The notes under the pieces were generated by a model, which was given only the letters and a program-made list of their open reading frames with translations, was not told the origin of the DNA and ran no database searches. This document shows, piece by piece, positions 28,631 through 54,230 of a DNA stretch of 64,000 nucleotides; the stretch's first letter is position 1, and each line of letters starts with the position of its first letter. The stretch spans positions 39,246,001 to 39,310,000 of the forward strand of contig OX597837.1 in the NCBI GenBank assembly GCA_951406725.2, in the 5' to 3' direction. Both the position numbers and the translations under genes were made by a program. The DNA comes from Octopus vulgaris. Taxonomy: Eukaryota.

Positions 28631-29177
28631 GCATTTCTGATATTTCTGATGTCTAAGGATGGATATTGTTGTGTATGAGTCTGTTTTCAAATGTAATTCT
28701 GAAGAACTGATGAGGCAAATCGTCAAACCGTCCAACCCATGCCAGCATGGAAAGCGGACGTTAAACGATGACAATAATGATGATTCGACCGGCTTCTTTC
28801 AGTTTCCGTCTACCAAATCCACTCACAAGGCCATAAGAGAAGACACTTGCGTTAGGTGCCACACAGTGGGACTGAACCTGGAGCCATGTGGTTGGTAAGC
28901 AAGCTACTTACCACACAGCCACACCTGTGTCTTTCTACCTTTATTTCTCTCTCTCTCTCTTTCAATCTATCTTCATTTAGTTCTATATCTTTCTTTCTCT
29001 CTTCCAGCCTCCCTCTGTCTGTCTGTCTGTCTGTCACTCTCTCTCTCCCTCTCTCATTCTGCTCTCCTAACCCTTGTTCTTCTTCTTCTCCTTTCCAGGA
29101 TCTCAAATGATCAAGGCCAACCACTCAGGACTACAAACGGAGGTAAATCTACCCAATATCAAAATCACCACCAAATT

Positions 29178-29235
29178 ATGCAACTTCTGTTTACCGTGCT
29201 ATTTATTCTTGGATTAGCATTTCAAAGTTTTGTCG
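29178..29235 (+). CDS. Spitz/Keren-like EGFR ligand, first coding exon (signal peptide MQLLFTVLFILGLAFQSFV-D); exon begins at 29099
   Basis: Polypyrimidine tract plus cag acceptor (AG 29097-98); ATG at 29178 with A at -3; 19 mostly hydrophobic codons then G|gtaagt phase-1 donor that joins exon 35672 in frame (G|AT = Asp). Confidence 0.85.
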
Positions 29236-29499
29236 GTAAGTACTACTACTACTACTACCACTGCTGGTTACAGAGTGGTCACGGTTTCAAATAACTCCTT
29301 CTCCCTTACCTGACAAACCTTTCTCATTTCTTTTTTCTCTTTCACCCTATCACTTTTCCCCTTCTTCCTCACTCTCTCTTTGTCTCTCTTTCTCTCATTT
29401 TCACCCTCATTGTTATTGCTTCATTCTCTTTCATTCTCCCTCTCTCTCACTCTCACATACTCATTCTTTCACAAACTATCCCTCTTTCTCTCTTTCACA

Positions 29500-30380
29500 C
29501 ACAATCCGTCTCTCTCTCTCTCACACACACCATCTCTCTCTCTCTCACACACCAATCTCTCTCTCTCACACACCATCTCTCTCTCTCTCACACACCATCT
29601 CTCTCTCTCTCTCACACACCATCTCTCTCTCTCTCACACACCATCTCTCTCTCTCTCACACACCATCTCTCTCTCTCTCACACACCATCTCTCTCTCTCT
29701 CACACACCATCTCTCTCTCTCTCACACACAATCTCTCTCTCTCTTTCACACACAATCTCTCTCTCTCTTTCACACACATCTCTCTCTCTCTCTTTCACAC
29801 ACAATCTCTCTCTCTCTCTTTCACACACAATCTCTCTCTCTCTTTCACACACAATCTCTCTCTCTCTTTCACACACAATCTCTCTCTCTCTTTCACACAC
29901 AATCTCTCTCTCTCTTTCACACACAATCTCTCTCTCTCTTTCACACACAATCTCTCTCTCTCTTTCACACACAATCTCTCTCTCTCTTTCACACACAATC
30001 TCTCTCTCTCTTTCACACACAATCTCTCTCTCTCTTTCACACAATCTCTCTCTCTCTTTCACACAATCTCTCTCTCTCTTTCACACAATCTCTCTCTCTC
30101 TTTCACACAATCTCTCTCTCTCTCTTTCACACAATCTCTCTCTCTCTCTTTCACACAATCTCTCTCTCTCTTTCACACAATCTCTCTCTCTCTTTCACAC
30201 AATCTCTCTCTCTCTTTCACACAATCTCTCTCTCTTTCACACAATCTCTCTCTCTCTCTCTCTCTTTCACACAATCTCTCTCTCTCTCTCTCTTTCACAC
30301 AATCTCTCTCTCTCTCTCTCACACAATCTCTCTCTCTCTCTCTCACACAATCTCTCTCTCTCTCTCTCTTTCACACACAA
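29500..30380. repeat. (CA)/(CT) compound minisatellite cacacaatctctctctctcttt
   Basis: 22-24 bp units; about 270 nt downstream of the coding exon 1 donor. Confidence 0.95.
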
Positions 30381-31384
30381 GAGAGTGGTTGTGTGTGAAA
30401 GAGTGGGTGGCTGTGTGTGTAAGAGGGGGTGCTGTGTGAAAGGGAGAGAGACCATGCCTACATCCCCCTCCCCAACCTCCACAGTCATTTCTTAACAAAA
30501 ATACCTTCAAATTTTTCATTTCTCATCAAATATATTTCCAAGGTAACAGGTGTGTGTGTGTGTGTGTGTTTGAGGAAGGTACCAGTTGGTAGGAACAAGT
30601 GACAGAGTGGGGATGGAGCGGTGACTAAAACTTCCCCCTACCCCAGGGAAAATATACCAGTAATTCTCAGACTGTGTATATGGGGCAGGGGAAATATAGT
30701 GTCTTGCTACTATTTTTTTTTTTTTTGTTCTTTAGACTTGGGATGTTGTTGTTGTTTATAGACAGAATAAGAGTTTGATGGTATTGTGCTGTTGTTGTGG
30801 TGGTAGTGTGCTGGTGGTAGTGGTGTTGTGAAGATGTATTCTTGGGCTTGTGTTGTAGTATTTTGCATGTGTGTGTGTATGTATGCTTGTACTGTGTTTG
30901 TATGGGAAAGAGATAGGAGAAAAGACTGTGTATGTATGTGTGTGTGTGTGTGTGTGCGTGCTCGCTGTATGTGTTTGTATGGAAGGAAGAGGGGAGGAGG
31001 AAGTCTGTGTGAATGAGACACTTTGTGAAAGTGTGTGTGTGTGTGTGCATGCATGCACTGTAGGTGTTTGTATGATGGAGTGAGAGTCTGTAGGAAAAAG
31101 AGTCTGTGTGAGCGATATAAAGAGATTGTATGAGTAAAAGAGAAATGGCTTTGAGAGTGATAAAAGGAGATTGTGTGACTGTTAACCCCCCCCCCCACGA
31201 CCACCACCTATGAGGGGGGGGAGTGAATGTACAAGTGGAAAGAGGAACTGTGAGGGTTGCAACTTTGGGCCATTCTTATGCGCTCTACTCTGTTATACAA
31301 TGAACCCTTGATTACCCTAATACAGAAGTACCTCGGTGTTTGAACACCTCTGATCAAAAATGAATTATGCTTTATATTTATATA

Positions 31385-31755
31385 CTAGTAGTATCGCCTG
31401 GCGTTGCTCGGGGTTTGTTTCGACCCTTTAGAATTGGAATTTTTGGAAAGTAAAAATGTTGCATTATGTAGCTTGTTATTCTCTTTAAGTGAACATTTTT
31501 CTGGTTGAAATACACCGAAAAATGGCGACACAGCAGTCAAAAAATCATAAAATGTAGGGATTTTCATAGAAAAAAAAGCACCTTTTTGAAGTAAATAATT
31601 TTTGGTCCGATTTGAATTTTTTCTTCCACGGATGGAAGAGCAAGCCTTCTATCATACTCTTAATTTTGGTCAACTTGTGCCACAGGGTCTTGGAGGAGGT
31701 AGTGTTAGTTGAAGGCTACCAAACCTGCTATACACAGACAACTTCAGCTTATATA
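31385..31755 (-). mobile_element. Helitron-like non-autonomous element
   Basis: Minus strand ends in a GC hairpin followed by CTAG|T; related ends at 36972-37270. Confidence 0.6.
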
Positions 31756-32965
31756 TATACATATATATATATACATATAAATGCGCCCTTTTAAAGTCTA
31801 GCTCATGGGCTCGGTTTCCTGGTTTATATGTCGTATGTGTTCCCCAGCTGGACAGGACGCCAGTCCATCGCAGCGTTACACATTTTTGCCAGCTGAGTGG
31901 ACTGGAGCAACATGAAATACAGTGTTTTGAAGTGTTTTGCTCAAGAACACAACGCGTTGCCTGATCCAGGAATCAAAACCACAATCTTACGATCATGGGG
32001 CTGACACCCTGACCACTAAGCCACGTGCCTCCACATATATATATATATATAAAATTTGAGGGAATATTATTCCTAACTTACAGGGAAAAATTCAATTTAG
32101 AAATACTAAATCAAATTTCACAAAGTATAATATATATATATATATTTATATAAATTAGAAAAAAACCCACCTTTTATCAATTCAAAATGAAAAAATTAAA
32201 TTACACCATCTAGAAAATTACATATAGAAATATTAAATATAATGGTAGTGCTGGTGGAAGTAGTGATGGTTGTGGTGGTGGCAGTGATGGTGCTAGTGGT
32301 AGTGATGGTGGTAGTGTTGGTGGAAGTAATGATGGTGGTTGTGGTGGTGGAAGTCGTAATGGTTGTGGTGATGGTGGTAGTGTTGGTACAAGTAGTGGTG
32401 GTGGTGGCAGTGATAGTGGTAATGTTGGTGGAAGTTGTGACAGTTGTGGTGGTGACAGTGATGGTTGTGGTGATGGTGGTAGTGTTGGTGGAAGTATTGA
32501 TGGTTGTGGCAGTGGTGGTGGTGGTGGTAGGGATGACTACTGTTGGTGCCAGTGGTGGTGGTGGTGGTGGTTGTGGTACTTCTACTGTTATTAATAATAG
32601 TAATATTCGTAGTAGTGGTGGTGGTGGTGGTGGTGTTTGTGCTGTTGTGATTATTGAGTAGATTAACACCATCCTCTTAGGTGGATTAAGTAAAAGATTT
32701 GAAATTCCGGGTTCCTTTCTGTGGACTTACTCAGATCTGTTTGTCAATTTACCTGACAAATAGACACAGTGGCAACAACAGTATTGGTTGTAGCATCAGC
32801 GGTGTTAAACATAGGGGTGTGTTTGTAAGGGTCTGTAGTTGTGTGTGTTTAAGGGTGGTGTGTGTGTGTGTGGGGGGGGACATTAGTTAGCAACGGTGGG
32901 GCCCTTTTTTTAAAATTTTCTTTTTGGTCAGTATAGCAAAGGTGTTTAACACAAACATTTAAAAT

Positions 32966-32997
<32 letters not shown>

Positions 32998-33483
32998 GTG
33001 TGTTGTAGTGGTGGTGAAGCGATGATGTGTTGTGGTGGTGGTGGTGGATATTTATGGATTCATAGCCGGGGTGAGGTTAGAAAGCATTCCATTGAAAGAA
33101 TCTCAAACAAGACCGAGAGATTCTGTTAACTACTTCGACCATCAACACCCCACCACCACTACTACCACCGCCACCACTTTCGTTTTATGTTTATATAGTG
33201 GTAGGGGTGGCGAGCTGGCAGAATCGTTAGCATGCTTGGTGAAGTGCTTTGCGGTATTTCTTTCGTCCTTACACTTTCTGAGTTCAAATTCTGCTGAGGT
33301 CAACTTTGCCTTTTCTCCTTTCAGGGTTGATAAAATAAGAATTAGTCAAGAACTGGGGTCAGACCTCAAATATATATATATATATATATATATATCCGAA
33401 GATCTAAAAATCTTTGGATTTTTAAAAATAAGCTAAGCCACTGGTTTTAATTATTTCTACCCTTATTATTTAATTTATATATA

Positions 33484-34027
33484 CAGTGGCGGCCAAAATA
33501 TTCAGAACGGCATTGTTTTCGTCAGAAAAGTAGATATAATTTTTTATCAAAGTTGTTTTATATTCTATAATTTTCACAGACAATAAATACGATATTATTT
33601 GTTATTGCCTGAGATTTTGGTGTAATTTGAGAGGATAATACAAAAGTTATGGATGATTTAGTGATTTACTGCAAAGCCCATGGCGACCAAAATGATCAGA
33701 ACGGTTGCTTTTACTCCGTGTTTTAGTATATTTAACCGGCGAACTCTAATGTTTTGAATTTGTTTACGTGACGGTTCGTTTACTAAACATTAGTAAGAAT
33801 ATTTGCAGTGTACTTTGTTAATATAATGCCACTTACTACGTTACCAATTCGCCAGCAGATTATTAAGCTTCGAAAGGAGGATAATTTAAGTATTGGGTCT
33901 ATTGCAAAGATTGTTAACAAGTCAAAAAGTGTTGTATACGGTATTCTTAAGGACTACGATGATTGTGGTTCGTGTGAAGCAAGAAAGTTTACAGCTAGGC
34001 CAAGAAAAACGACCAAGAGAGAAGATG
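33484..34027 (+). mobile_element. Tc1-family transposon 5' fragment (IR/DR end and N-terminal transposase), truncated by a SINE
   Basis: TA|CAGTGGCGGCCAAAA terminus, internal direct repeat tggcgaccaaaatgatcagaacg near 33681; ORF from 33826 MPLTTLPIRQQIIKLRKEDNLSIGSIAKIVNKSKSVV...ARPRKTTKRED (HTH plus GRPRK-like). Confidence 0.8.
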
Positions 34028-34584
34028 AGGGTTCCGGTTACGACGATGAGGGAACGGCCTGCTCGTGAAATTAACGTGTAAGTGGCTGAGCACTCCACAG
34101 ACACATGCACCCTTAACGTAGTTCTCGGGGATATTCAGCGTGACACAGAGTGAGAAGGCTGGCCCCTTGAAATACAGGTACAACAGAAACAGGAAGTAAG
34201 AGTGAGGGAAAGTTGTGGTGAAAGAGTACAGCAGGGATCACCACCATCCCCTGCCGGAGCCTCGTGGAGCTTTTAGGTGTTTTCGCTCAGTAAACACTCA
34301 CAACGCCCGGACTGGGAATCGAAACCACGATCCTACGACCGCGAGTCCGCTGCCCTAACCACTGGGCCATTGCACCTCCACCATGATTATTCTAACACCC
34401 AGGTCATTAATCCTATTGAATTACCTCTCAAAAGGCTTGAGTTTTCAGGAGGGGGATTTTCAGAATGAAAGGCTAGAAATCTACAATTGTTATCAAGATG
34501 AATAAATCTGCAGGTCGCTTTGTTTTCAATATTTTGTTCCTAGTTCTCACTTACCTTTAAAAAAAAATCATGTCTGAAAAATTT

Positions 34585-34930
34585 ACCATAACTTAGATAA
34601 CTTAGATATGTTTCGACCAAAGATTGGTCCAGGCCATGTCTAACTTAATAGCACCACCTGATAGGATTATTCGAATCCTGTTTAAGTCAAGTTTTGTTCA
34701 AGTAGTGAGTTCTTGTTGGGTGAGTTGTATCCAATTATGGGTGGCTTATCTGGTATTCTTTGAAGGAATCTATCCAGACTCCGTTTAAAGTTGATGGGAT
34801 CCTTTTCCTCTTTGATCTCCCCCGGGACAATGTTAAATAGGGCTTGCCCTGGAAAAATTTGCTGTAAATTTGCTTGGAGTTTTCATGCATTTTAAATTAC
34901 ATCCTCACATTTTTTTTTAATGTTTCACAT
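34585..34930 (-). mobile_element. CR1-group LINE 3' fragment (degenerate)
   Basis: Minus-strand translation ...NFKRSLDRFLQRIPDKPPIIGYNSPNKNSL resembles the CR1-type C-terminal FKxxLDxFLxxIPDxP motif. Confidence 0.6.
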
Positions 34931-35671
34931 TGAATTAAAGACTTACCTATTTAATGCTGTTTAAAAAACCTTTTATTTTAAAAAGTCTTGATATAAATTG
35001 CTTTATTAATGTCCATATGGCGAAATCTTTTATGGCAAAGATGTTTCCGGTGAAATTTCCTAAAACCATAAAAAATATATTTACTTTCATAGAATTTTCC
35101 TGTTTTATTTCTGTTTTTTCTATTCTCTATATTTTCTACATCTCACTACTTCATCTCTCTTTTAACCTTTCTCTCATCTTCTCTTCATCCTCTCTCTCTC
35201 TCTCTCTCTTTCTAGTCTCTTTCCTTCACCCTTACATTTCCTCCCTTTCTTTTCTCTCTCATTTCTCTCCTTCCCTTATTGCACTCTTACTCTCTCTTTC
35301 TCCCCACTCTCTCATTTCAATCTTACTCCTTTATCATCTCACCCTGTTTCTGTTTTCAGTCTCTCCTTTCTCCTCTCTACTTCCTCTCACTTTGCTCATC
35401 TCTCTCTTGTCACTCCCCCCCCCTCTGACTTCTCTCGTCTCTTATGTCTCTCTTCCTTCCATATCCTTCATCTCTCTCATCATGCCACTCTCCCATCTCT
35501 CTCTCTACTCCTCATATCTCTTTCTTCATCTCTCTCTCATCACTTCCCTTCCCTCTTTCTCTCTATCTTTCTTCCACATCCCTTGCCTCTCTTACTCTCT
35601 CTCCTCATATATCTCTCTCTCTCCTCCTCTCCATATCTCTCTCACTTTCCTCCTCTCTCTTTCTCACACAG

Positions 35672-35891
35672 ATGCCTGCAGTCGTAAATCTCCCAGACCT
35701 GTGGTCGATCACAGCAAATCCACAACCGCCGCCACCGTCTCTTCTTCCTCCTCCTCCTCCACCACCACATTTAAACCTGTACCTCCAAACAGATTCAACT
35801 GTACGGAGGAGCAAATTTCAAGTACATCTTGTCTCAATGGCGGCGTATGTTTCTCTATGATGCTTGGTGGAAGCAAGGCGTCCGCCTGTAA
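35672..35891 (+). CDS. Spitz/Keren-like EGFR ligand, coding exon 2 (N-terminal Cys, Ser/Thr stalk, EGF Cys1-Cys4)
   Basis: Long CT tract plus cacag acceptor; encodes (D)ACSRKSPRPVVDHSKSTTAATVSSSSSSSTTTFKPVPPNRFNCTEEQISSTSCLNGGVCFSMMLGGSKASAC-K; ends AA|gtaagt (phase 2); CLNGGxC EGF motif. Confidence 0.92.
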
Positions 35892-36472
35892 GTAAGTAGC
35901 TTGGTTGGTTTTCTTCCTTTTGTTTTGTTTTCTTTTGTATTTTGTTTTTTCATATATATTGCGTGTCACCTTGGGCAAGTATCTTCTCCTATAGCCTCGG
36001 GCCGACCAAAGCTTTGTGAGTGGATTTGGTAGACGGAAACTCAAAGAAGCCCGTCGTATGTATATATACTCTCTTTACTACTTTACTTGTTTCAGTCATT
36101 TGACTGTGGCCATGCTGGAGCACCGCCTTTAGTCGAGCAAATCGACCCCATGATTTATTCTTTGTAAGCCTAGTACTTATTCTATCGGTCTCTTTTGCCG
36201 AACCGTTAAGTTACGGGGACGTAAACACACCAGCATCGGTTGTCAAGTGATGTTGGTGGGGGACAAACACAGACACACAAACATATACACACACACATAT
36301 ACATATATATGACAGGCTTCTTTCAGTTTCTGTCTACCAAATCCACTCACAAGGCTTTGGTTGGCCCAAGGCTATAGTAGATGACACTTGCCCTAGGTGC
36401 CACACAGTGGGACTGAACCCGGAACCATGTGGTTTGTATGCAAGCTACTTACCACAGAGCCAATCCTATGCC

Positions 36473-36506
<34 letters not shown>

Positions 36507-36583
36507 ATATATATACGTTAAATAAAATTAGACAACAAAACCAAAACTGTGGAATTTATAAGGCATTTATTAAGAGAAAAGTA

Positions 36584-36631
36584 GTCTTACAGCTGTTTCA
36601 GGGATATTAAGGATATCCCTTCATCAGAGAC
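36584..36631 (-). ncRNA. Minimal type-I hammerhead ribozyme motif (intact)
   Basis: Minus strand reads gtct-CTGATGA-agggatat(cctta)atatccct-GAAAC-agct-GTA-agac: stem I gtct/agac, 8-bp stem II, palindromic stem III ACAGCTGT, GUA cleavage triplet. Confidence 0.8.
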
Positions 36632-36701
36632 GATATGAGAAAGTTAACTAGAGGGAAATAGTAGAGTTCAAACTAACTCCTTATATTAACTTTCTCATGT
36701 C

Positions 36702-36749
36702 ATCTCTGATGAAGGGATATCCTTAATAACCCAGAAACAGTTGTAAGCC
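36702..36749 (+). ncRNA. Degenerate hammerhead copy (inverted partner of 36584-36631)
   Basis: atct-CTGATGA-agggatatccttaataaccca-GAAAC-agtt-GTA-agcc; core intact, stems I and II mismatched. Confidence 0.55.
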
Positions 36750-36927
36750 AACTTTTCTCTGTATAAACGTTCTGTAAATTAGTTTTATTGTTTCATTTTA
36801 ACATATGCATGCTCACACAAGACCCGCATTAAACTCCTCACTCCTATTATCAAACCAAGAGTCTAACTACGGTCCTTCCATAGCACTTACATAGCTTTGC
36901 CACCTTGGGTCTTCTGGATACCATTAC

Positions 36928-36964
<37 letters not shown>

Positions 36965-36971
36965 ATACATA

Positions 36972-37270
36972 CTAGCAGTATTGCCCGGCGTTGCTCAGAT
37001 TTGTAAGGGAAATAACTATATAAGCATTTTTAGAGAGTTACTTCCCATATATAAACCGAGCAAAAAATGCATTAAAAATGTGGAAAAATGATGGTAAATT
37101 TCTTTTTAAATCATTGACTCATCGTAGATGCGCGCTAATACCCAGAAGGGCTCGATATGAATCACGACTATAAGATACCCGCTTTTGGCTAAACTGCACC
37201 GTAAAATGTGGGAGTAGTTAGGAATCTAAATCGGAGTAGACAGACACACACACAACTTCAGTTTTATATA
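36972..37270 (-). mobile_element. Helitron-like non-autonomous element
   Basis: actagcagtattgcccggcgttgctc end and caacttcag..tatata end shared with the 31385 copy; different interior. Confidence 0.6.
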
Positions 37271-37292
37271 TATATATATATATATATAACCT

Positions 37293-37329
<37 letters not shown>

Positions 37330-37904
37330 TTTCCCTCTCCCCACATGCACACACATTTGCTTGACAACCCATGTTGGTGTGTTTATGCCTCCCAGAAACT
37401 AAGTAGATGATCATGTGCCTATGTATGGCATTGTGTCGTGCTTGAGAAGTCAACCCCTAAAACTGAGCAAAATTGCAGTCATGGCAGATACTGGTGTTAC
37501 GCAAATGGCACCCATGCCGGTGGCACATAAAGAACACCTTTCGAACGTTGGGCCTCGTGGAAGCAAAAGGACTGATTTCCTTTCAAATGTTGGACCTCAC
37601 AGAGGCAATGACTAAGACCTTTGGCATTATGTCATGCTTGAGAAGAAGACCCATCAAGCAGAACAAAATCGTAGTCATAGCAGATACCAGTGTCACACAA
37701 ATGGTACCCATGCCAGTGGCACATAAAGGCACCCATTACACTCTTGGAGTGGTTGGTATCAGGAAGGGCATCCAGCTGTAGAAAACCATGCTAAATCAAG
37801 TTGGAGTCAGTTGCAGCCTTCTAGCTTCCCAGCCCTGGTCAAACTATCCAACCCATGCCAGCATGGACAACGGATATTAAATGATGATGATGATGATGTA
37901 TGTA

Positions 37905-38160
37905 TGTATACTGAAGATGAACAAAATGAGGAATCAACAGGATGATAAGAGTGACAACAGGTTTAACGAATATTATCTGGAAAATAAAAACTCCGAAATT
38001 GTCATTCACGGGACGCGTATTTAGAAGAAAGGGGAATAGATGGGGAAACGAAGTGGACGCCATGTCCAGAAGAAAAAAAACCGAAAGGGAAGACCATGCA
38101 GAGACTGGAATGATGACTTCTGATGGAGTTGTAGTGCACCTGAGCATCATAAACAATAGG
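37905..38160 (+). mobile_element. RTE-like LINE ORF C-terminal remnant
   Basis: IRVTTGLTNIIWKIKTPKLSFTGRVFRRKGNRW ... GRPCRDWNDD (frameshifted) resembles the RTE C-terminal WAGHVxR..RW...GRP..RW.DD motif. Confidence 0.6.
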
Positions 38161-38528
38161 TTCATTAGGCACATGTATAGTGAAGGTGCATGGCTCAGTG
38201 GTTAGAGTGTCATGCTCACAATGATGTGATAGAGAGTTTGATTCCTGGACTGGGATGTGTATTGGGTTCTTGAGCAGGATGCTTTATTTCACGTTGCTCC
38301 AGTTCACTCAACTGTAGAAATGAGTTGCAACGTCACTGGTACCAAGCTATATCGGCCCCTTTGCTTTTCTCTTGGATAACATTGGTGGTGTGGAGAGGGG
38401 AGGCTGGTATGAATGGGTGACACAGCTGGTCTTCCATAAACAACCTTGTCCCGACTTGTGCCTTGGAGGGCGGGGAACTTTGTAGGTGCTGTCCCTTGGT
38501 CATTCATGACTGAAGGAGCTCTTATATA

Positions 38529-38810
38529 TAAATGGTCTGATTAATAAGTATTTGGACTGTTTCCATAGTAACAAAGCTAAAGCATTCTGAGTGAAGCCAC
38601 TTGGCACAGATCAGCCTTGAACTCTGCTGTGCATGAGCACTAAGTTTTGATATTCTAGCTCACTTCCGGTTTGCAGCAGTGCTTGGAAGGAAGGTGTGTA
38701 GCATGTGATCGTCACATTCACCATGACAGAGAAAGTTGAGCAGAGAATCTGCATAAAATTTTGCCAAAAGCTTGGTGAAACCTGCTCAGAGGCCAACGCA
38801 AAGTTTCCAT
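38529..38810 (+). mobile_element. Mariner transposon 5' remnant
   Basis: ATG at 38723 gives MTEKVEQRICIKFCQKLGETCSEA, typical of mariner N-terminal HTH; TIR-like ggtctgattaataagtatttggact upstream. Confidence 0.7.
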
Positions 38811-39649
38811 CATTCTCGACACAATCAAGGAGATCTTGAGCAAGTGAAACTCGAGTGTCTTTTCGGTCATTAGATTCAGCAAACTCCCCAGCATGAAACT
38901 AATACACCTGCTTGTTGTTCATACACCTGTCTTCGTCTTTTGTTTTCCTGCAAATTTATATATATATACGTAAAAGCACGTAAAAGCACGTAAAAGCACC
39001 ATCCGTTTCGTGGCCGTTTGCCAGCTCTGTCTGGCCCCCGTGTTGGTGGCACGTAAAAGCACCATCCGTTCGTGTCCGTTGCTAGCCTCGCCTGGCCCCG
39101 TGCCGGTGACACGTAAAAGCACCATCCATTCGTGGCCGTTTGCCAGCTCTGTCTGGCACCTGTGCGGGTGGCACGTAAAAAGCACCCACTACACTCCCGG
39201 ACTGGTTGGCGTTAGGAAGGGCATCCAGCCGTAGAAACACTGCCAGATCTGACTGGGCCTGATGAAGCCTTCCAGCTTCACAGACCCCAGTTGAACCGTC
39301 CAACCCATGCTAGCATGGAGAACGGACGCTAAATGATGATGATGATGATATATATATATATATTATTCAAAGAAATTCCAACTCTGTCTGTTTTTTTATG
39401 TTTTATTTATATTCTTTATAATATTAATGTAGAATATAGTATAAGTTGAAAAATTCCTGCCAGATGTTTCCCATTCCATCCAAACTTGTGTACAAAATAT
39501 TTTTCAACATTTAGAAAGTTGTCAATTTCTAAATTGCTGTCATCTACACATCAAAAATATGTGTGACTTTTCATTTCTTTGTGTCAGCATTTTATCTGCC
39601 ATGGTTGATCTGAAAGAAAAAAAATCTTTTTAATTGATTTGTAAGTAAG

Positions 39650-40340
39650 TAACTACACTAAACCACAAAAGGAACGTGAGACACGTGTGACTGTGAAATA
39701 CGTTTTAATTTCATTATATCAGAGATAAATATTGATAAATTTGATTAAGTCAATTTCTTCGATGCACTTTGGCCACAGTCTATGGGTCGTTGTCGTATAT
39801 TCTGATAGTGGGTGGATCCAGCACATTGAGATTGTAGGGCGTGACATGTTCAATATCATGTATGCCCTCTCTGGATGTTCAAAATGGCCATACACTGTCG
39901 GTACATGGAGTGCATGAGGCAGTTTACAAAAGCCATTGGCACCTGTGCCCACACCCTGAGGAAAGCTGCCTCCAGTTCCACACAAGTTGTTGGCCTTTGG
40001 ACCACATGGTTCAGCCATCTCTGGATTTCATCCCACAGGTGTTCAGTTTGGTTCTGATGTGCTGATGCAAGAAGTCCATGGTGACCCTGGACATGTGGGA
40101 GGGAGCATTGTCTTGCTGAAACAGGTGGCTATGGTAATGTATGAAGAAGGGCATGATGTGAGGTCTTAGGATCTGCTCAATGCAGCGCTCTGCCTGCACC
40201 AATATTTTGGGACACATGGGGCCCAGTTCTCTGATTCGGGCCTATAGCACCCCAAACCATAATGTTTTGGCCACCCCACACATCTCTCATAACATATGCA
40301 TCTCTATAGTGTTCACCCCTCCTACGCCACACCCTCACTG
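39650..40340 (-). mobile_element. Tc1-family transposase 3' remnant
   Basis: LFQQDNAPSH catalytic-Asp motif, then frameshifted EHLWDEIQR...LRVWAQVP...SM. Confidence 0.8.
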
Positions 40341-41018
40341 CCATCCGCTAGCTTCTTACCACACATGGTTCCACACCATGGTTCCAAGTTCAGTCCCATT
40401 GCATGGCACCTTTGGCAAGTGTCTTCTACTATAGGCAGAGGCGTGGCTGTGTGGTAAAAAGCTTGCTTCCCTACTGTATGGTTCTGGGTTCAGTCCCACT
40501 GTGTGGTACCTTGGGCAAGTGTCTTCCAGTATAGCTTCAGGCCAGCCAAAGCTTATATATATATATATATATATATATATAGGTGCAGGAGTGAATGTGT
40601 GGTAAGTAGCATGCTTACCAGCCACATAGTTCTGGGTTCAGTCCCACTGCGTGACACCTCTTCTACTATAGCCTCGGGCCGACCAAAGCCTTGTGAGTGG
40701 ATTTGGTAGATCTAAACTGAAAGAAGCCCGTCGTATATATGTATATATGTGTGTGTGTTTGTGTTTGTCCCCTGCCCCCAACATCGCTTGACAACTGATG
40801 CTAGTGTGTTTACGTCCGAGTAACTTAGTGGTTCGGCAAAAAGAGACCAATAGAATAAGTACAAGACTTTCAAAGAATAAGTCCTGAGGTCAATTTCCTC
40901 GAGTAACGGTGGTGCTTCAGCATGGCCGCAGTCAAATGACTGAAACAAGTAAAAGAGTACAGCCTTGTGAATGTATTTGGTAGACAGAAACTGCCTAAGC
41001 AGAAAGAAGCCCATTGTG

Positions 41019-41083
<65 letters not shown>

Positions 41084-41407
41084 TTATGTGTGTGTCTGTG
41101 TCTGTTTGTCCCCACCACCATCACTTGACAACCGATGCTGGTGTGTTTATGTCTCCGTAGCTTAGCAGTTCGGCAAAATGAGACTGATAGAATAAAAGTA
41201 CTAGACTTTAAAAAATATGTCCTCGGGTCGACTTGTTTGACTAAAACCCTTCAAGGCAGTGCTCCAGCGTGGCCGCAGTCAAATGACCGAAACAAGTAAA
41301 AGAATAAAAGAACACCCCCCCACACACACACACGCATGCACATTCTACCCACTTTCCCCCAAATCCACTTTGTACTGCATTATCCATTTCTCTTTCTGTC
41401 TTTACAG

Positions 41408-41460
41408 ATGCCCTGCAAAGTACACAGGGCTAAGATGTGAAGCTTTAGCCTTTCACCCTG
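41408..41460 (+). CDS. Spitz/Keren-like EGFR ligand, coding exon 3 (EGF Cys5-Cys6)
   Basis: tttctgtctttacag acceptor; AA|A completes Lys, then CPAKYTGLRCEALAFHP; G|gtaagt donor. Completes the C-x-C-x3-Y-x-G-x-R-C signature in frame with exon 2. Confidence 0.92.
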
Positions 41461-42152
41461 GTAAGTTATCCTTACTTTCACTTTCACCCTTCTTTTAATT
41501 CCTTACTTTCACAGCCTTTCTTACCATTGTTATGTGTAGTTTATGTGTGTGTATGTATGTATGTATATATATATAAATTAGAAAAAAACCCACCTTTTAT
41601 CAATTCAATATTATAAAGGAATAAACTACCTTGATAAAATGTGGTTTCTTTTCTAATTTATATATATATATATATTATATTAAATTAGAGATAAAACCAC
41701 TATTAGGCAAATCAAACAATGAAAAACTTAAGCCAGTTCTTAAAATTAATTAATTTATATTATTTTAAATATATATCAAAAGTATTAAAAGTTTAATAAA
41801 AGATAATGAGTAAAACACTAATAGTGGTTTTATCTCTAATTTAATATAATATAATATTTTACAATAAAATTGGATTCAATCCTAAATCTGATTTTTCCCA
41901 GTAAGTTTGGATTTATTCCCGAATATTTTATTATATATATACTACAAAATTAGAAAATGGAGAAACATACTTAAATCAATAAAACATCAACTATCAGATG
42001 ATACCCAATCAATACTTTATTACACCATTACATATCATTAAAGGCATTATACAAAATATATATATATATAATACTTTCTGAAATTTGATTTAGTAATTCT
42101 AAATTGAATTTTTCCCTGTAAGTTTGGAATAATATTCCCTCATATTATTATC

Positions 42153-42190
<38 letters not shown>

Positions 42191-42293
42191 GAGATAGGGG
42201 TTGTAGTGTAACCCTCCTATATAATTAGTTAATAAATTATATGAATTGGTATTATCTAGTAGTTGATGATTGATTAAAATATATTCCTCCATT

Positions 42294-42336
<43 letters not shown>

Positions 42337-43411
42337 TAAGGGTAGAAATCAATATTTATCAATTAAAACCAGTGGTCTAGCATATTAAAAGAATCCGAAG
42401 ATTAAATATTTATATATACCAATTAAGGACTGAACCGAAAAAGTGGACAGTCAACGTTCTAGATATAGACGTCAAATCGCCATTCTCCACAAAAGATTAT
42501 GTTCTCAGATCAAACTCAACACAAACCCAAGCAATAAACAAGTGAAAATATACGAAAAACAATACTTAATTGGTATATATATATATATATATATATATAA
42601 ATGTTTTTATGTTGAGTCATAATAAAAGCAATTTTACATTAAATTGAAGAATTACTCAATACTTTTTGTAGAGTATATATTTATTATTCTTTAACAAGAA
42701 TTAGAGTTGACAGTGACTTCGAAGTTTCAGCCAGCTTAGCCTTCATCTGATTATGATACATTTGGTATGTGTAGTTGTAGCTACTTAATTTTTTAGTTTA
42801 AGTCTCATAATTTGGATGGTAAAATTTGTGATGGCACTTAGGTGTAGAAATCAGCACATCGTTAGAAGCATGACATCATAGCTACTTAGTTTAAGTGTAC
42901 TAATTTGGAGGGACAGGGGTGATATCACTTTGGTGTAGAGGTTAGCATAGCTATATGGTTTACCGTGCAGAAGGAGCATTTGAATTTTACAGGCAGTGTG
43001 TGAGTCTGTGCATATATAGTAAGCTATAGAATATTATTCAAGCACTCCATTTTCCTGGTTTCTATGGAGCATGTGTTCCCCTCAGCTGGATGGGACACCA
43101 GTCCATCGCAGCATTACTCAAGAAACAGGAAGGAAGAGTGAGAGAAAGTTGGGTCGAAAGAGTACAACAGGGGGCGCTACCAACCCCTGCCGGAGCCTCG
43201 TGGAGCTTTAGGTGTTTTCGCTCAATAAACACACACAACACCTGGTCTGGGAATTGAAACCGCGATCATCCAACTGCGAGTCCACTGCCCTAACCACTGG
43301 GCCATTGCGCCTCCACTAGAGTAGTATATAGTAATATATAAGAGAAAAGAATGAGAATATAAAGATATCAATGATGGGGAAATATGTGTATGTAATATGC
43401 ATACATGTGTA

Positions 43412-43452
<41 letters not shown>

Positions 43453-43671
43453 CTAAACACACAAATGTGAAACAAGGTGGAAAAAAGAGTACTCAAATAC
43501 CAGTGGTAGAGTAATATGCTTTATTTAAAGGAGCAGAAAATTAAACAAAACCTGTTACTCTGAGTTTCCCGTTGCCGTTCACCGGACAGTTTTTGCTATG
43601 TTGAGAAACTGAACGGCAATGGGAAACTCAGAGTAACAGGTTTTGTTGAATTTTCTGCTGCTTTAAATAAA

Positions 43672-43703
<32 letters not shown>

Positions 43704-43707
<4 letters not shown>

Positions 43708-44253
43708 TGAGTTAAAAAGTAATGCCATTTTGTTTAGGACAGGTATAATTACCAACAGAGGAACATGTATCATACATCAGAATAAAACTGGTCCTCTGTG
43801 GATCACATCCCTACTTCTCAACATAGTCGCTGTTTCTCTCAATAGCAATGCTCCACTTTTGAATGAGAGCATGTATTCTTGCCCCATAAAATTCTGTTGA
43901 CTGTTTTTTGAGCCACTTCTTCACTACAGTTTTCACTTCCTCGTCACTGGAATGATGTTTGCCTCTTAAACCCTCTTTCATGGGTCCGAAGAGATGATAG
44001 TCCAGTGATGAAGGAAGTGAAAACTGTAGTAAAGAAGTGGCTCAAAGAACAGTCAACAGAATTTTATGGAGCAGGGATACATGCTCTCATTCGAAGATGG
44101 AACATTGCTATTGAGAGAAACGGTGACTATGTTGAGAATTAGGGATGTGATCCACAAGGGACCAATTTCATTTTGATGTATGATACATGTTCCTGTGTTG
44201 GTAATTACACCTGTCCTAAACAAAATGGCATTACTTTTTGATTCACCCTCATA
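43704..44253. mobile_element. Palindromic mariner-derived MITE made of two inverted 3' ends
   Basis: Arms 43706-43951 and 44001-44250 are reverse complements, each encoding EVKTVVKKWLK.QSTEFY...IHALI..W.IAIERN.DYVE*; TA flanks. Confidence 0.85.
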
Positions 44254-47189
44254 TAGTAGATATTTAATTATTCTCTTTAATTAGACGCTTTCGTTACTGA
44301 ACCGAAGACAAAGTTCCAATTTCTTGTCAAACCCTCTTCACATCAGTCTACTTTGGCTCCTAATTATTTTTCATTGGAATAGGCATGAACATCACAGCAT
44401 CTGATTCCTTTCAATGCTCTCCTGCCCCCTCCATACACATACACAAGGTAATACGAGAACTGCAGCATAGTTACTTGACTTACAAGAAATAACAGCCAAA
44501 TATCTCGCAAACCATACCAAACTGTCTGGGGAAAGAATAAGGATTTTTTTCCTTTGTTTTTTTTTTTGTTTTTTTTTATGATTTTCTCCTAGTGTAGGGG
44601 ACGACATGCTTAAAGATTGGTGGAATTGTTAGCACATCGGACAAAATGCTTAGTAGCATTTCTTACAGCTCTTTATGTCCTGAGTTCAAATTCCACCAAG
44701 TTTTGATTTTGCCTTTCATCCTTTTCAAGCTCAATAAGATATGTACCATTATAGCATTGGAGTTGATGTAATTGACTAGGTCCCGCAAAATTTCAGGCTT
44801 TCCTCCTATAGTAGAATTATTATTATTATTATTAAGGCAGTGAGGTGGCAAAATTGTTAGCACACCAGGCAACATACTTAGCAGTATTTCATCTACCTTT
44901 GCGTTCTGAGTTCAAATTCTGCTGAGGTCGACTTTGCCATTTATCCTTTTGGAATCGATAAATTAAGTACCAGTGAAACACTGGGATCAATGTAATCAAC
45001 TGGTCCTCTCCCCCCAAAATTTCAGGCCTTGTGCCTTTAGTAGAAAGGGTTAGGCAAATAGCTGGCAGTCATGTTAGCATGCCCGGTGAAATGCTTAGCG
45101 GTATTATGTCTGCTATTATGTTCTGAGTTCAAATTCCACCGAGGTCGACTTTGCCTTTCATCTTTCCAGGTTCATCATCATCATCATCGTTTAACGTCCG
45201 TTTTCCATGCTTGTATAGGTTGGACCATTCGACCGGGGTTAGGAAGCCAGGAGGCTGCACCAGGCTCCAGTCTGATCTGGCAGTGTTTCTACAGCTTGAT
45301 GCCCTTCCTAACGCCAACCATTCTGTGAGTGTAGTGGGTGCTTTTTACGTACCACATGCACAGAGTCCAGAGGAGGCTGGCAATGTCCACGATCGGTTGG
45401 TGCTTTTTACATACAACCGGCATGGAAGCCAGTCAAGGTGGTGCTGGCATCGGCAATAAATTAAAAACCAGTTTCTCCTGTGCAGATACGTGTGCATAGG
45501 ACAATTAAATTATTGCACAGGGGTTCCTTGAGCCAGGGAAATGTTTTCTTGGGGTTCCGCTCCAGCAAAAAGTTTGAAAAGCACTGATTTAGGGGTTAAT
45601 ATAATATAGTTCCAGTTGAGCGCTGGAGCCAGAGGCATTGACTTAAATCTCTCCACCAAAGTTGCTGGCCTTGTGCCAGACTTTTGAAAACCTCTCACCA
45701 AAAGCACACCATACTTATTAAGCAAAGTGTTCCAACCATTTATTCCAGACATGTGTATTAGACTATGTTACCTATAACGATGATGATGATGGTGACGACA
45801 AAGATGTTGCCGCTGACAATTTGCGACTGATTGATCAATTGAATAAAACGACGACTCTTAATGACTTAATTACAAAGGTGGCGGTGAGAGAGGTGGCGGG
45901 GAGGGGGGACACACTTGGTTAATTGCCTGCTGTCGTCCTATCCTAGATATTATTACCAATCATTATAATTAGTACCCTGTAGTGGATGGTGGTGGCGGCG
46001 GCGGTGGTGGTGAATGGGGGGGGCGGGCGGGAGGATGAAGAGCGACGAAGACTCTTCTAAGTTGTGTAATGAGACAAGAATGATGGAGGGGGGGGCATGG
46101 ATGGGTGATCGTGCGGAATGTGTGGGTGGGTGGGTGGGTGGGGAGAGTTAGGGGGGGTGAGGGCGGACGTTCATTAAACTTTAATCTGGGTTGTAGAGGT
46201 CAGGATGGGTGGGGGAGAGGGAAGTGGGGGGGGTCGTATTTGTAGTTGAGAGAGGAGGCGGTGGCGGTAACGTCTAGACATGTAGGGGTGGTGTTGGCGT
46301 TGGTGATAGTAGCAGTGGTGGTGGTTGTGGTGGTTGCAGTGGTAGTGTTAATGGTCATTCATCAAAGTAAACTGCCTGAGAAAAGGGAATAAGTGTAAGG
46401 AAGGTGGGGTGGGCGAGAGTGGATTGGGGGCTCGGGTTTGGTGGGGTGGGGGGATGAGTATATTAGCCAGTGGTCATTCATTAGACAACTGCTTAGAACC
46501 ATGAAGTTGGCAAGCAAACTTCTTACTATTAATTTTTCTAAGGACACTGAAAAATGGGGTCACACACATGACTCTCCCTTCTCTGACAAAGCAAAAAGGG
46601 GATTTTAAAAAAAACCCAACAATGTCCTGGTCTATCAGACATGATAAAAAAACCTTTCCTGCCATGACTATCCTATCATTGTTTCTCTTTCTGATTTTCA
46701 AATCATCATTTTCATTTAACATCTATTTTCCATGCTGGAGCACCACCTTTAGCTGAGCAAATCAACCCCAGGACTTATTATTTGTAAGCTTAGTACTTAT
46801 TCTATCGGTCTATTTTGCCAAACCGCTAAGTTACAGGGACGTAAACATACGACCATCGATCGTCAAATGATGTTGGGGGGACAAACACAGACATACAAAC
46901 ATATACCCACACACATATACATATATACGATGGGCTTCCTTCAGTTTCCGTCTACAAAATCCACTCACAAGGCTTTGGTCGACCCGAGGCGGTAGTAGAA
47001 GACACTTGCCCAAGGTGCCACGCAGTGGGACTGAACCCGGAACCATGTGGTTGGTAAGCAAGGTACTTACCATGCCCATTTATATAAAAAGTCTGTTTTT
47101 ACATTAAGTGTGGTTTGAGAGAGATTTGGCTACTATTTCTAAAAAGTTGGTAACGTATATTGTCAACACAATAATAAATTGATTCTAAA

Positions 47190-48557
47190 TTTACCTCTTT
47201 GTAAGTTGAATGTAAGTTTGTCATTGTTAGCAGGTGAGGTTGAATTCAAAATTGTCATTGCTAAAATCTTGATTCAAATTTGTCATCACTTAAATATATG
47301 TTGACTTTAAGCTTGTCATCATCTCAGTGTATACAGAGATGATTACGCTGTCATCATTACACCAAAAAAAAAGTTACCTAAGTTTGTCATCATGCCAATA
47401 CATGATGAATTAAGTCTTGTCATCACTGCAGTGCTAGTTGCCTCTAAATTTGTCATCATGGCTTATAAATGTTAAGTCTCTACTTGTCATCACTGTAAGA
47501 TTAGTCGAATCTGAACTTGTCATCACTTAAATATATGTTGACTTTAAGCTTGTCATCATCTCAGCGTATACTAAAGTCCACTGTCATCACAACAAAAAAA
47601 AGGTCAAATCTTTGTCATCATCCCAATACATGTTGAATTAAGTCTTGTCATCACTGCAGTGCTAGTTGCCTCTAAATTTGTCATCATGGCTTATAAATGT
47701 TAAGTCTCTGCTTGTCATTACAATAAGATAAGTTGAGTCTAAGTTTGTCATCACAACTGTACAAGAATCGAATTTAAGTTTGTCATGGTTTTTATATGTC
47801 AAATATCGGTTTGTCATTACATAAATAGTTCTCACAAAGTTTGTCATCACAGTAATAAATCAACTCTAAATTTGTCATCACAGTAATAAATCAACTCTAA
47901 ATTTCTCATCACAGCTTAGACATGTTAAATCTCAGCTTATCATGGCAATAATACAGATTAAGTCAAAGTTTGTCTTTAATGAAATATGTGTTGCATTTAT
48001 CAACACACCAATACAAATCTGACCCTTTTTTTTTTAATCGTCAGAGCAATAGTACAAATTGAATCTAATTTTTGTCATCATGGTTTATAAGTGTAAAATC
48101 TCAGCTTGTCATCACAGTAATTTACATCGAATCTCAGTTCGTCATCACTGGTTGCCTCTAAATTTGCCACCACAGCTTGTATACATTAAATCTCAGTTTG
48201 TCATCACAGTAGCAGAGATTAATCTAAGGTTGTCATCACAGCAATACAAATTGTTTCTAAATTTCGTTTTCATCACAATAATAATATAAATTGAATCTTT
48301 GTCATCATTGCAGTAATATAAGTTGATAGTAGTCCACCTCTAAATTTGTCATCACAGCTTATATACATTAAATCTCAGTTTGTCATCACGGTAATGCATG
48401 TTAAATCTCAGTTTGTCATCACAAAAATTTAACTTTGTCATCACAGCAATAGAAGTTGATCCTAATTTTTTTTTTGTCATCACAATAATAATACAAATTA
48501 AATCTAACTGGGTCATCATCACGGCAATATAAGTTAAATCTTGGCTCATCATTACAG

Positions 48558-48596
<39 letters not shown>

Positions 48597-48750
48597 TAAA
48601 ACATAATATCATGAATAGCGATTGTGAAACCGGTCGATATATTAAAAATTATATTAAAACTATGTAAGTGTGCTTATTTTCCTTTTTTAATTTCTTATAT
48701 ACATTACAATTCACCACGTGGGGATAATCGAAATTCCTCCTTTCTGTTAC

Positions 48751-48789
<39 letters not shown>

Positions 48790-49190
48790 AACTTTAATTT
48801 TGTCAACACAGCAATACATATTAATCCCACTTTTTTGTCATCCTGGCTTATAAATGTTAAATCTCAGCTTGTCACCATGGTAATATAGATTAAACCTAAG
48901 TTTATCATCACAGCAATATATGTAAGATATAACTCTGTTATCACAGTAACACAAATCGATTCTAAATTTTTTGTCATCACATTGATAATATAAATTGAAC
49001 CTAACTTGACACAGTATTATGCCAATTCTAAATTTGTCATCATGGCTTATGAATGTTAAAATCTCAGCTTGTCATCACAGTAATATAAGTTGTTGAATCT
49101 TATATTACTGTCATCACAGCAATATGTACCAACTCTAAAATTTGTCATCATGGCAGTACAAGAGTTAAATGTAAAGATGTCTTCGCAGTA
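47190..49190. repeat. Degenerate ~30-35 bp satellite with TTGTCATCAC core
   Basis: Dozens of tgtcatca(c/t) cores at regular spacing; interrupted by a (TA)n-flanked insert at about 48560-48785. Confidence 0.85.
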
Positions 49191-49231
49191 ATGTTAACAT
49201 TCTGTGTTGGTCTGTGTTTTTCTAATTTCAG

Positions 49232-49258
49232 GCTTTATTTTCAGCTATTACTCATCTG
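49232..49258 (+). CDS. Candidate 27-nt phase-1/1 micro-exon of the EGF-ligand gene (GFIFSYYSS)
   Basis: ttttctaatttcag acceptor and G|gtgaga donor; frame-preserving after exon 3; unique sequence at the end of a satellite. No homology support. Confidence 0.45.
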
Positions 49259-49811
49259 GTGAGATGGGATTCCTTCAAATGCGCCAACCTGCCCAACCCC
49301 TAAATCTCTCTCTCTCTCTCTCTCTCCTTATCTCTTTATCCAATTATCTCTCTGCTAATCCAAATTAGGATATCAAGCTTCTATTATCATTTCCTCCTAT
49401 ATTTTCTTTTTTCCTCAGTGGGTCAAGAAGGGAGTGGGGTGAGGCGGGTGAGAAGTCCTGCAGATGTTGTTTAGCCCCGGGTCGGCTTCGATCAAGCAGA
49501 CTTTACGATGACAAGCTTTCAAGCTGTGACCATCCTATCTTATTTCCACTAAGCCTTAAATGACAGGAAAAGATTGCATGATTGTGTGTGTGCCAAATAA
49601 GCAAAAAAATAGATCTTATTTTTATACTTATTTTCACTTTGAATTAGTACAAAAACTATTATAATTGTTAGTCTCTTGCACCGTAAAATTTACAATCTCA
49701 TTATTAGAAAGTGCCCTTAAAATATTGACTTTCCTTTGTTGACAGCCATATTCATAAGCATGTCTGCTGTTCTCTAATGAAACCTCAGTTGATATCTGCT
49801 GTTTAAGGGTT

Positions 49812-50210: not shown

Positions 50211-50496
50211 AACCCTTAAACAGTGAGAAAGAGTTGTATGAATGTGTGTGCCAAATGGACAAAAACCAAAAACATACCTCTTTTTTTTTCTTGGGGGTAA
50301 GTTTGGTATTTATTTTAATTTTAAACAAGTACAAAAACTACAATAATTGTTAGTTTTTTTTGTACAATAAAATTCACAATCTCATTATCAAAAAGTGCTG
50401 TAAAATATTCACTTTACTTTGATAATGGCTGTATCCATGTAACATTTTTGCAATATCAGTTGATGACGTCTACTGTTCTCTGATGACACGTACTCA

Positions 50497-54196: not shown

Positions 54197-54230
<34 letters not shown>

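What the first reader, a model, noticed from the sequence alone, without database searches (positions are those of the whole stretch)
29178..41460. Spitz/Keren-type EGFR ligand with a predicted N-terminal palmitoylation cysteine in a cephalopod-like genome
Seen: three exons splice in frame to 110 aa, MQLLFTVLFILGLAFQSFVDA|CSRKSPRP...NCTEEQISSTSCLNGGVCFSMMLGGSKASACKCPAKYTGLRCEALAFHP, with Cys spacing C-x9-C-x5-C-x12-C-x-C-x8-C and an intron between Cys4 and Cys5. Known: that intron position is typical of EGFR-ligand genes, and Drosophila Spitz (VEA|CSSR..PKPR, then a Ser/Thr stalk) is palmitoylated on the Cys exposed by signal cleavage by the MBOAT enzyme Rasp, limiting its range. Inference: VDA|CSRKSPRP closely parallels Spitz, suggesting the lipid-tethered EGF-ligand mechanism extends to molluscs. 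The ORF track misses this gene.
Basis: partly seen in the sequence, partly recalled or inferred. Interest (0 to 1): 0.85.

Follow-up and report, generated by a model that had tools for sequence, protein, structure and literature searches.

The report
Ancient lipid-tethered EGF ligand in octopus
This is a real, spliced octopus gene for a membrane-anchored EGF-type growth factor whose predicted mature end begins with a cysteine that is also conserved in other molluscs, worms and arthropods, so the fat-tethering known from the fly protein Spitz is likely an ancient invertebrate mechanism, and alternative first exons in several other molluscs would switch it off.

Summary
Observation confirmed; interpretation largely supported but too narrow. 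The three exons are real (GT-AG; RNA contigs join exon 1 to exon 2 in 4 of 4 runs). Two more exons beyond the window add a transmembrane helix, giving a 162-aa protein identical to an unnamed Octopus vulgaris record. It meets the published sequence criteria for an EGFR ligand: one EGF module, intron between Cys4 and Cys5, Arg before Cys6, adjacent transmembrane helix. It also has a rhomboid-type site in Spitz's register. Cys22 is unpaired and fits HHAT substrate rules. The small-residue/Cys/basic motif occurs in 82 of 98 single-EGF homologues, including four mollusc classes, nemerteans and annelids. By eye it is in 13 of 18 protostome species but 0 of 24 non-protostome ligands of a published set. 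It is therefore likely a protostome inheritance, not a molluscan parallel. Unexpectedly, seven molluscan genes have paired isoforms that differ just upstream of the Cys; the long form buries it, mostly beside an odd number of extra cysteines, a possible lipidation switch. No long exon was found in octopus. Palmitoylation, cleavage site and receptor binding are untested; the EGF domain is no closer to Spitz than to neuregulin.

The parts
29100..29177 (+). 5' part of exon 1 upstream of the ATG, after a pyrimidine-rich AG acceptor
   Evidence: sequence; RNA contigs cover 29099-29234 in 4 of 4 runs
29178..29235 (+). coding part of exon 1: residues 1-19 of the predicted signal peptide; phase-1 donor
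   Evidence: best hydrophobic ATG-to-phase-1-donor exon outside repeats in window 1-35600
29236..35671 (+). intron 1 (6436 nt, phase 1, within the codon two residues before Cys22); matches the point where long and short isoforms diverge in other molluscs
35672..35891 (+). exon 2: end of signal peptide, Cys22, basic N-terminus, Ser/Thr stalk, EGF Cys1-Cys4
35677..35679 (+). codon of Cys22, the unpaired cysteine predicted to become the N-terminus and to be palmitoylated
   Evidence: invariant in alignments A1 (37 rows) and A2 (29 rows), whose rows were chosen as motif-bearing
35800..35889 (+). EGF module, Cys63 to Cys92 (Cys1-Cys4)
35892..41407 (+). intron 2 (5516 nt, phase 2) between EGF Cys4 and Cys5, the diagnostic EGFR-ligand intron
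   Evidence: criterion from PMC1618406
41408..41460 (+). exon 3: EGF Cys5-Cys6 with Gly100 and Arg102; phase-1 donor
41461..64000 (+). intron 3, running past the end of the window. It leads to exon 4 (G000:C24:39321116-39321218: rhomboid-type site L117/A120/I122 and transmembrane helix) and exon 5 (G000:C24:39326599-39326653: short tail and stop; least certain exon), both outside the window
   Evidence: no read support obtained for these junctions

Best explanation
This five-exon gene encodes a single-EGF membrane protein with the sequence marks of an EGFR ligand, which is likely palmitoylated by Hedgehog acyltransferase on Cys22 and likely released by a rhomboid protease, as fly Spitz is. Shown: gene structure, splicing of intron 1, one EGF module next to a transmembrane helix, an unpaired Cys22 followed by Ser and basic residues, wide conservation of that arrangement, and HHAT-, rhomboid- and EGFR-like exons in the genome. 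Inferred, in order: signal peptidase cuts after Ala21; HHAT adds palmitate to the exposed Cys22 in the ER; a rhomboid cuts at Ala120-Gly121; the freed ectodomain stays on the producing cell's surface by its lipid and activates EGFR at short range. The arrangement is likely inherited from the protostome ancestor and lost in flatworms and in some duplicated gastropod genes.
For: Gene and protein. EGFR-ligand criteria met (for the criteria). Best solved-structure matches are neuregulin-1 (E 8e-6) by sequence and Spitz EGF by fold. HHAT rules from PMC8061759 passages: N-terminal Cys, +2 may be Ser and not Lys, a basic residue within seven; Cys22-Ser-Arg-Lys fits. Homologues: 82 of 98 single-EGF transmembrane hits carry small(-1)-Cys-basic, and Lys is not among the six commonest +2 residues, which cover 81 of 83 rows. 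72 of 85 carry the motif when ranked on EGF plus transmembrane part alone; with the -3 rule added, 72 of 90 against a per-position background of 0.083 and 8 of 159 other upstream cysteines. Named carriers: cuttlefish, chiton, four bivalves, four gastropod genera, a nemertean, an annelid. Published set read by eye: 13 of 18 protostome species against 0 of 24 non-protostome EGF-type ligands. Rhomboid motif at the column of Spitz L135/A138 in 67 of 82, against at most 22 of 82 in 12 other registers. HHAT-like exon, E 7e-12 to human HHAT with the His kept; EGFR-like exon E 2e-19.
Against: No biochemical test; no SignalP. Four positions fit the (-3,-1) rule (after 12, 14, 21, 23); a cut after Ser23 would remove the Cys. 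An N-terminal Cys alone is not sufficient, and of 87 human proteins predicted to have one only the Hedgehogs are known substrates. The genome encodes Hedgehog, so HHAT's presence is no specific support. No match to PF05050, recalled as the domain of the Spitz chaperone Star (a weak negative). The rhomboid motif is permissive: alignment-free it is found in 73 of 82 motif-bearing but also 10 of 16 motif-less hits. Orthology with Spitz is not resolved. Homologue counts ignore relatedness, and the set was gathered with the full-length query.
Confidence: 0.68

Rival explanations
1. It is an EGFR ligand, but the conserved Cys22 is not acylated: it forms an intermolecular disulfide (dimer or partner) or serves thiol-based ER retention.
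For: Cys22 is the only unpaired ectodomain Cys. Long isoforms in other molluscs place extra cysteines next to it, which suggests it can pair. Several neuregulin-type ligands in the published set also show a Cys right after a hydrophobic leader, there at the start of a longer N-terminal region (by eye).
Against: A disulfide role would not need the Cys to sit exactly at a small(-3)/small(-1) site followed by a basic residue, as it does in 72 of 90 hits. The same arrangement is palmitoylated in Spitz.
Confidence: 0.15
2. It is palmitoylated or tethered but shed by an ADAM metalloprotease, or acts uncleaved (juxtacrine); the rhomboid-like site is a by-product of transmembrane composition.
For: Alignment-free, the motif also occurs in 10 of 16 motif-less hits. 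ADAM shedding of an invertebrate EGFR ligand is reported for C. elegans SISS-1 (PMC11686035). No Star-like match. Catalytic residues of the octopus rhomboids were not seen.
Against: One fixed register, matching Spitz, holds the motif in 67 of 82, with a second at Gly125 in 22 of 82 that parallels Spitz's secondary site.
Confidence: 0.12
3. The signal peptide is cut elsewhere (after Ser23) or the protein is not an EGFR ligand, and the likeness to Spitz is superficial.
For: Ala-Cys-Ser fits the (-3,-1) rule. Pfam EGF match is below its cut-off (E 0.017). The intron criterion also picks up mucins and meprins.
Against: In 11 of 83 motif-bearing rows the residue after the Cys is Leu, Phe, Met or Trp, which cannot serve as -1, while the residue before it is small. 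All ten best Atlas feature hits with a family share a family or clan, led by EGFR-ligand clusters.
Confidence: 0.05

Closest known systems
Drosophila Spitz, Keren and Gurken (Rasp-palmitoylated or predicted so; rhomboid-released EGFR ligands)
   Same: Signal peptide ending in a small residue, then Cys-Ser and basic residues; Ser/Thr/Pro stalk; one EGF module; transmembrane helix starting with a P4/P1/P2' rhomboid motif. Spitz EGF is the top fold match.
   Different: Keeps the Cys4-Cys5 intron that fly spitz and keren lack; very short cytoplasmic tail; EGF sequence scores no better with Spitz than with neuregulin-1; no Star-like match found. Keren is reported only in flies, so this gene can at most be a co-orthologue.
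C. elegans LIN-3
   Same: Cys right after the signal peptide (Cys23, mutated 'to prevent possible amino-terminal acylation' in PMC4465127); single EGF; rhomboid-processed (title of a cited paper).
   Different: Much longer acidic stalk and tail; acylation not shown in any paper found.
Spiralian EGF-type ligands catalogued by Barberan et al. 2016 (PMC4914847), e.g. Lottia, Owenia EGF-1, Lineus EGF-2, Terebratalia
   Same: Same architecture and, by eye, the same N-terminal Cys and juxtamembrane motif.
   Different: That paper has no cephalopod sequence in the EGF-type list, and its main text never mentions palmitoylation, Rasp or rhomboid.
Hedgehog N-terminus (canonical HHAT substrate)
   Same: Cys exposed by signal cleavage, small residue at +2, basic residue within seven; the common molluscan start Cys-Gly-Arg resembles the octopus Hedgehog start.
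   Different: Unrelated protein; no cholesterol anchor, a transmembrane helix instead.
Neuregulin/Vein-type and vertebrate TGF-alpha/epigen-type ligands
   Same: EGF module is most similar in sequence to neuregulin-1; overall size and layout like epigen.
   Different: No Ig domain; vertebrate EGFR ligands lack the N-terminal Cys.

Membership tests
EGF-family (ErbB) ligands, criteria of Stein and Staros 2006 | Splice site between Cys4 and Cys5 of the EGF module | tested here: met
   intron 35892-41407 lies between Cys92 and Cys94 (criterion)
EGF-family (ErbB) ligands, criteria of Stein and Staros 2006 | EGF module close to a transmembrane helix | tested here: met
   Cys6 at 103, helix about 120-144 in exon 4
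EGF-family (ErbB) ligands, criteria of Stein and Staros 2006 | Arg before Cys6 | tested here: met
   Arg102; 77 of 83 motif-bearing rows
EGF-family (ErbB) ligands, criteria of Stein and Staros 2006 | Binds and activates an EGFR | not testable with these tools
   EGFR-like exons exist in the genome; binding needs an assay
EGF-type ligand (Barberan 2016) | Only one EGF motif, signal peptide, transmembrane helix, no Ig domain | tested here: met
Neuregulin/Vein-type ligand | Ig I-set domain before the EGF module | tested here: not met
   40-residue low-complexity stalk only
HHAT/Rasp substrate | Cys is the first residue after signal cleavage | tested here: inconclusive
   cut after Ala21 fits the (-3,-1) rule and the homologue pattern best, but three other sites fit the rule; no SignalP
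HHAT/Rasp substrate | +2 residue not Lys; basic residue within the first seven | tested here: met
   Ser23, Arg24, Lys25, Arg28
HHAT/Rasp substrate | HHAT gene present with catalytic His | tested here: met
   one exon at G000:C16:56277928-56278116, E 7e-12 to human HHAT, His of the YWHG motif kept; whole gene not assembled; His called catalytic from recall
HHAT/Rasp substrate | Amide-linked palmitate on the Cys | not testable with these tools
   needs labelling or mass spectrometry
Spitz/Keren group | Rhomboid recognition motif (P4 hydrophobic, P1 small, P2' hydrophobic) at the top of the helix | tested here: met
   L117/A120/I122; 67 of 82 by column, but permissive alignment-free; allowed residue sets partly recalled
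Spitz/Keren group | Orthology by the EGF module | tested here: inconclusive
   profile with 8 arthropod-type rows of 37 ranks Spitz first; profile without them ranks neuregulin-1 first, 1.5e-10 against 2e-8; quick tree of 99 columns unresolved at the base
Spitz/Keren group | Star-dependent export from the ER | tested here: inconclusive
   no PF05050 match in the genome; link of that family to Star is recalled, and the search is exon-by-exon

The most novel reading that the evidence does not exclude
HHAT palmitoylation plus rhomboid release of the main EGFR ligand is an ancestral protostome system, not a fly peculiarity, and molluscs toggle it by alternative first exons: a short leader exposes the Cys for lipidation (tethered, short-range ligand), while a long leader buries it and supplies a partner cysteine that caps the thiol (lipid-free, diffusible ligand); some gastropod duplicates have fixed the capped form.
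Probability: 0.42. Interest if true: 0.72.

Novelty: new member of a known kind. Interest (0 to 1): 0.52.

Why it matters
In the review passages read (PMC8061759), Spitz and its two fly paralogues are the only non-Hedgehog HHAT substrates discussed. If the conserved motif is acylated, lipid tethering of EGFR ligands is as old as the protostomes. HHAT loss or inhibition in molluscs, annelids and nematodes would then affect EGFR as well as Hedgehog signalling. The paired isoforms give a natural on/off comparison for how a lipid sets a growth factor's range. The gene itself is an expected member of a known class; the value lies in the conservation pattern and the isoform switch, both cheap to test in cultured cells.

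Tried and rejected
Word-based homologue searches found only the octopus records; the full HMMER scan was needed. A fourth exon inside the window: no convincing candidate; it lies 11 kb beyond the end. A long alternative first exon in octopus: tblastn and exon scans over the window plus 160 kb upstream found nothing convincing; a hydrophobic ATG frame at 24701-24758 with a weak donor did not rank among the top 12 of 3261 candidates. The tblastn part printed nothing (probably a wrong option) and was redone. A second ligand paralogue in the genome: none at meaningful scores with three queries. My first rhomboid count (4 of 82) used columns off by one and is superseded. Co-variation of the Cys motif with the rhomboid site (67 of 82 against 2 of 16 by column) weakened to 73 of 82 against 10 of 16 alignment-free, so it is not claimed. 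The careful tree did not finish; only the quick tree was seen. Atlas search of the six-Cys bivalve extension gave no usable hit. The rhomboid exons were not classified against solved structures. No RNA holder was listed on record; splicing is read from the contigs. Miura 2006 and Hardy and Resh 2012 were not held and are cited only through reviews. Earlier scan findings: none. No complex prediction was run.
Full report
1. The observation. The window lies on contig C24 of a 2.8-Gb genome. Exon 2 matches two database proteins named Octopus vulgaris; one, P0002 (162 aa), continues into a transmembrane helix and a short tail. Its last two exons lie 11 and 17 kb beyond the window's end, and the five-exon CDS translates exactly to P0002. 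In 4 of 4 runs laid, from 4 studies, a single contig holds exon 1 directly followed by exon 2. The exon 2-3 junction was not listed in that cut table, and later junctions have no read support here. The rest of the window is simple repeats and dispersed repeats, with no other credible gene among frames of 150 codons or more.

2. What it is. The protein has a hydrophobic leader (3-15), Cys22, a basic start, a Ser/Thr-rich stalk with one N-glycosylation sequon at 62, one EGF module (63-103) and a helix from about 120. It meets the criteria of Stein and Staros (PMC1618406, passages): intron between Cys4 and Cys5 and closeness to the membrane; it also has the Arg before Cys6. Sequence matches among solved structures are led by neuregulin-1 (E 8e-6), with Spitz at 0.012. 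The model's best fold match is Spitz EGF, with neuregulin-1 next (the model used alignment A1, which has 8 arthropod-type rows of 37). Atlas features point to epigen, TGF-alpha and an arthropod EGF cluster. Pfam alone is below cut-off.

3. The cysteine. The HMMER scan gave 214 hits at E 0.001; the best 150 were examined. I dropped 51 (several EGF modules, over 500 aa, no helix, or truncated), leaving the query and 98 others. Of the 98, 82 have, as the last Cys before the EGF module, one preceded by Ala, Gly, Ser or Cys and followed by a basic residue within seven; 61 also have a hydrophobic stretch just upstream. Ranked on the EGF and transmembrane part alone, 72 of 85 carry it; with the -3 rule, 72 of 90 against a background of 0.083 per position and 8 of 159 other upstream cysteines. 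These counts ignore relatedness. The 16 without it include amphioxus, gastropod paralogues, a mussel protein and two neuregulin-like proteins; 7 of the 16 have no upstream Cys, several apparently truncated. Named carriers cover cephalopods, a chiton, bivalves, gastropods, a nemertean and an annelid. In the supplement of Barberan 2016 (PMC4914847; parts 1, 11, 12, 13 of 15 read; main text parts 1-2 and a term search), 13 of 18 protostome species have such a ligand by eye: both priapulids, C. elegans, Drosophila, Tribolium, Terebratalia, Lepidodermella, Membranipora, Lineus, Owenia, Capitella, Helobdella and Lottia. Three of these have doubtful 5' models. The four flatworms lack it, and Novocrania has it internally. 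Of 24 non-protostome EGF-type ligands none has it; Ciona EGF-2 has a Cys there but no basic residue. The octopus start fits the HHAT rules given in PMC8061759 (passages). The cut after Ala21 is inferred: four sites fit the simple rule, two lie inside the hydrophobic core, and the one after Ser23 is disfavoured by bulky residues at that place in some homologues.

4. The pathway. The top of the helix has Leu117, Ala120 and Ile122 in the register of Spitz L135/A138 (PMC2941825, passages), kept in 67 of 82 homologues; the next best register has 22. Alignment-free the motif is permissive. The genome holds an HHAT-like exon among 7 MBOAT matches, 6 rhomboid-domain matches at 5 loci, three loci on C10 with similar receptor-L exons of which one was tested and is EGFR-like, and Hedgehog. 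No PF05050 match was found.

5. An unexpected pattern. Seven molluscan genes have isoform pairs identical for 62-178 residues from the Cys onward and different from one or two residues before it, where octopus has its phase-1 intron: Mya, Dreissena, Pecten, Biomphalaria, Haliotis rubra, Littorina and a cuttlefish-like pair. Short forms end their leader at the Cys (the cuttlefish model lacks a clear leader at its 5' end). Long forms carry another leader and an extension. Of 8 long forms (Lymnaea added), 5 have an odd number of extra cysteines (5, 5, 1, 1, 1) at every rule-fitting cut; Littorina has 1 or 0 by cut; two had no rule-fitting cut but show one Cys after the hydrophobic core. Gastropod paralogues keep only a small two-Cys loop. 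I infer a switch between a lipidated and a disulfide-capped ligand. These are gene models and one assembled contig, not checked against reads, and no long exon was found in octopus.

6. Mechanism. Most likely: signal cleavage exposes Cys22, HHAT palmitoylates it, a rhomboid frees the ectodomain, and the lipid keeps it near the source (0.68). In flies palmitoylation restricts Spitz movement, and it can be undone by proteolysis of the N-peptide (PMC5875562, passages). Rivals are a disulfide role, ADAM shedding, or another cut site.

7. What is known. Palmitoylation is shown for Spitz and suspected for Keren and Gurken; LIN-3 Cys23 was mutated as a precaution (PMC4465127, passage). Ten literature searches (listings and abstract starts only, apart from the papers named) showed no paper noting the Cys in Spiralia or the isoform pairs; subscription journals are mostly not covered, so this is not proof. 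Also seen as passages: PMC11686035 and bioRxiv 10.1101/2022.12.28.522136 (no link between hhat-2 and lin-3). Orthology to Spitz is unresolved: without arthropod-type rows the profile prefers neuregulin-1, and the quick tree is open at its base.

8. Verdict. A real gene and a new member of a known class. Interest 0.52; 0.72 if the ancestral system and the isoform switch are confirmed.

Noticed in passing
proteins P0021/P0170, P0028/P0180, P0031/P0183, P0022/P0172, P0185/P0156, P0154/P0015, P0005/P0004: Long and short N-terminal isoforms of the same molluscan gene; the long form buries the conserved Cys beside extra cysteines (five in two bivalves, forming a six-Cys module with no Atlas hit).
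   Followed up: partly
proteins P0016, P0044, P0136, P0018, P0098: Gastropod and unnamed paralogues lack the exposed Cys and keep a Cys-x3-5-Cys loop; accession numbers and contig lengths suggest tandem duplicates next to the motif-bearing gene in Biomphalaria and Littorina.
   Followed up: partly
G000:C10 near 39.2, 39.9 and 67.5 Mb (L026-L028): Three loci with similar receptor-L exons, one tested as EGFR-like: probably three EGFR paralogues, two of them 0.7 Mb apart, against one ligand of this type found.
   Followed up: partly
supplement of PMC4914847: All four flatworm species lack the N-terminal Cys in their EGF-type ligands, while several neuregulin-type ligands (Meara, Halicryptus) show a Cys right after the leader.
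   Followed up: no
alignment A1: Many spiralian homologues end in Glu-Thr-x-Val, like a PDZ-binding tail (label recalled); the octopus and cuttlefish models do not, so their last exon may be divergent or mis-modelled.
   Followed up: partly
window 24701-24758 (+): Short hydrophobic ATG frame with a weak phase-1 donor, faintly like the long cephalopod leader; not supported by scoring.
   Followed up: yes
window 29100-29177 and database protein P0001: A second, truncated gene model reads the 5' part of exon 1 in frame and stops after exon 2; probably an annotation artefact.
   Followed up: no
G000:C24:39154794-39154995: Frame that looks like the start of a Tc1-type transposase (label recalled), about 91 kb upstream of the window.
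   Followed up: no
window 27244-27720 and 47276-47754: Two tandem arrays with periods of 226 and 228 bases, about two copies each.
   Followed up: no
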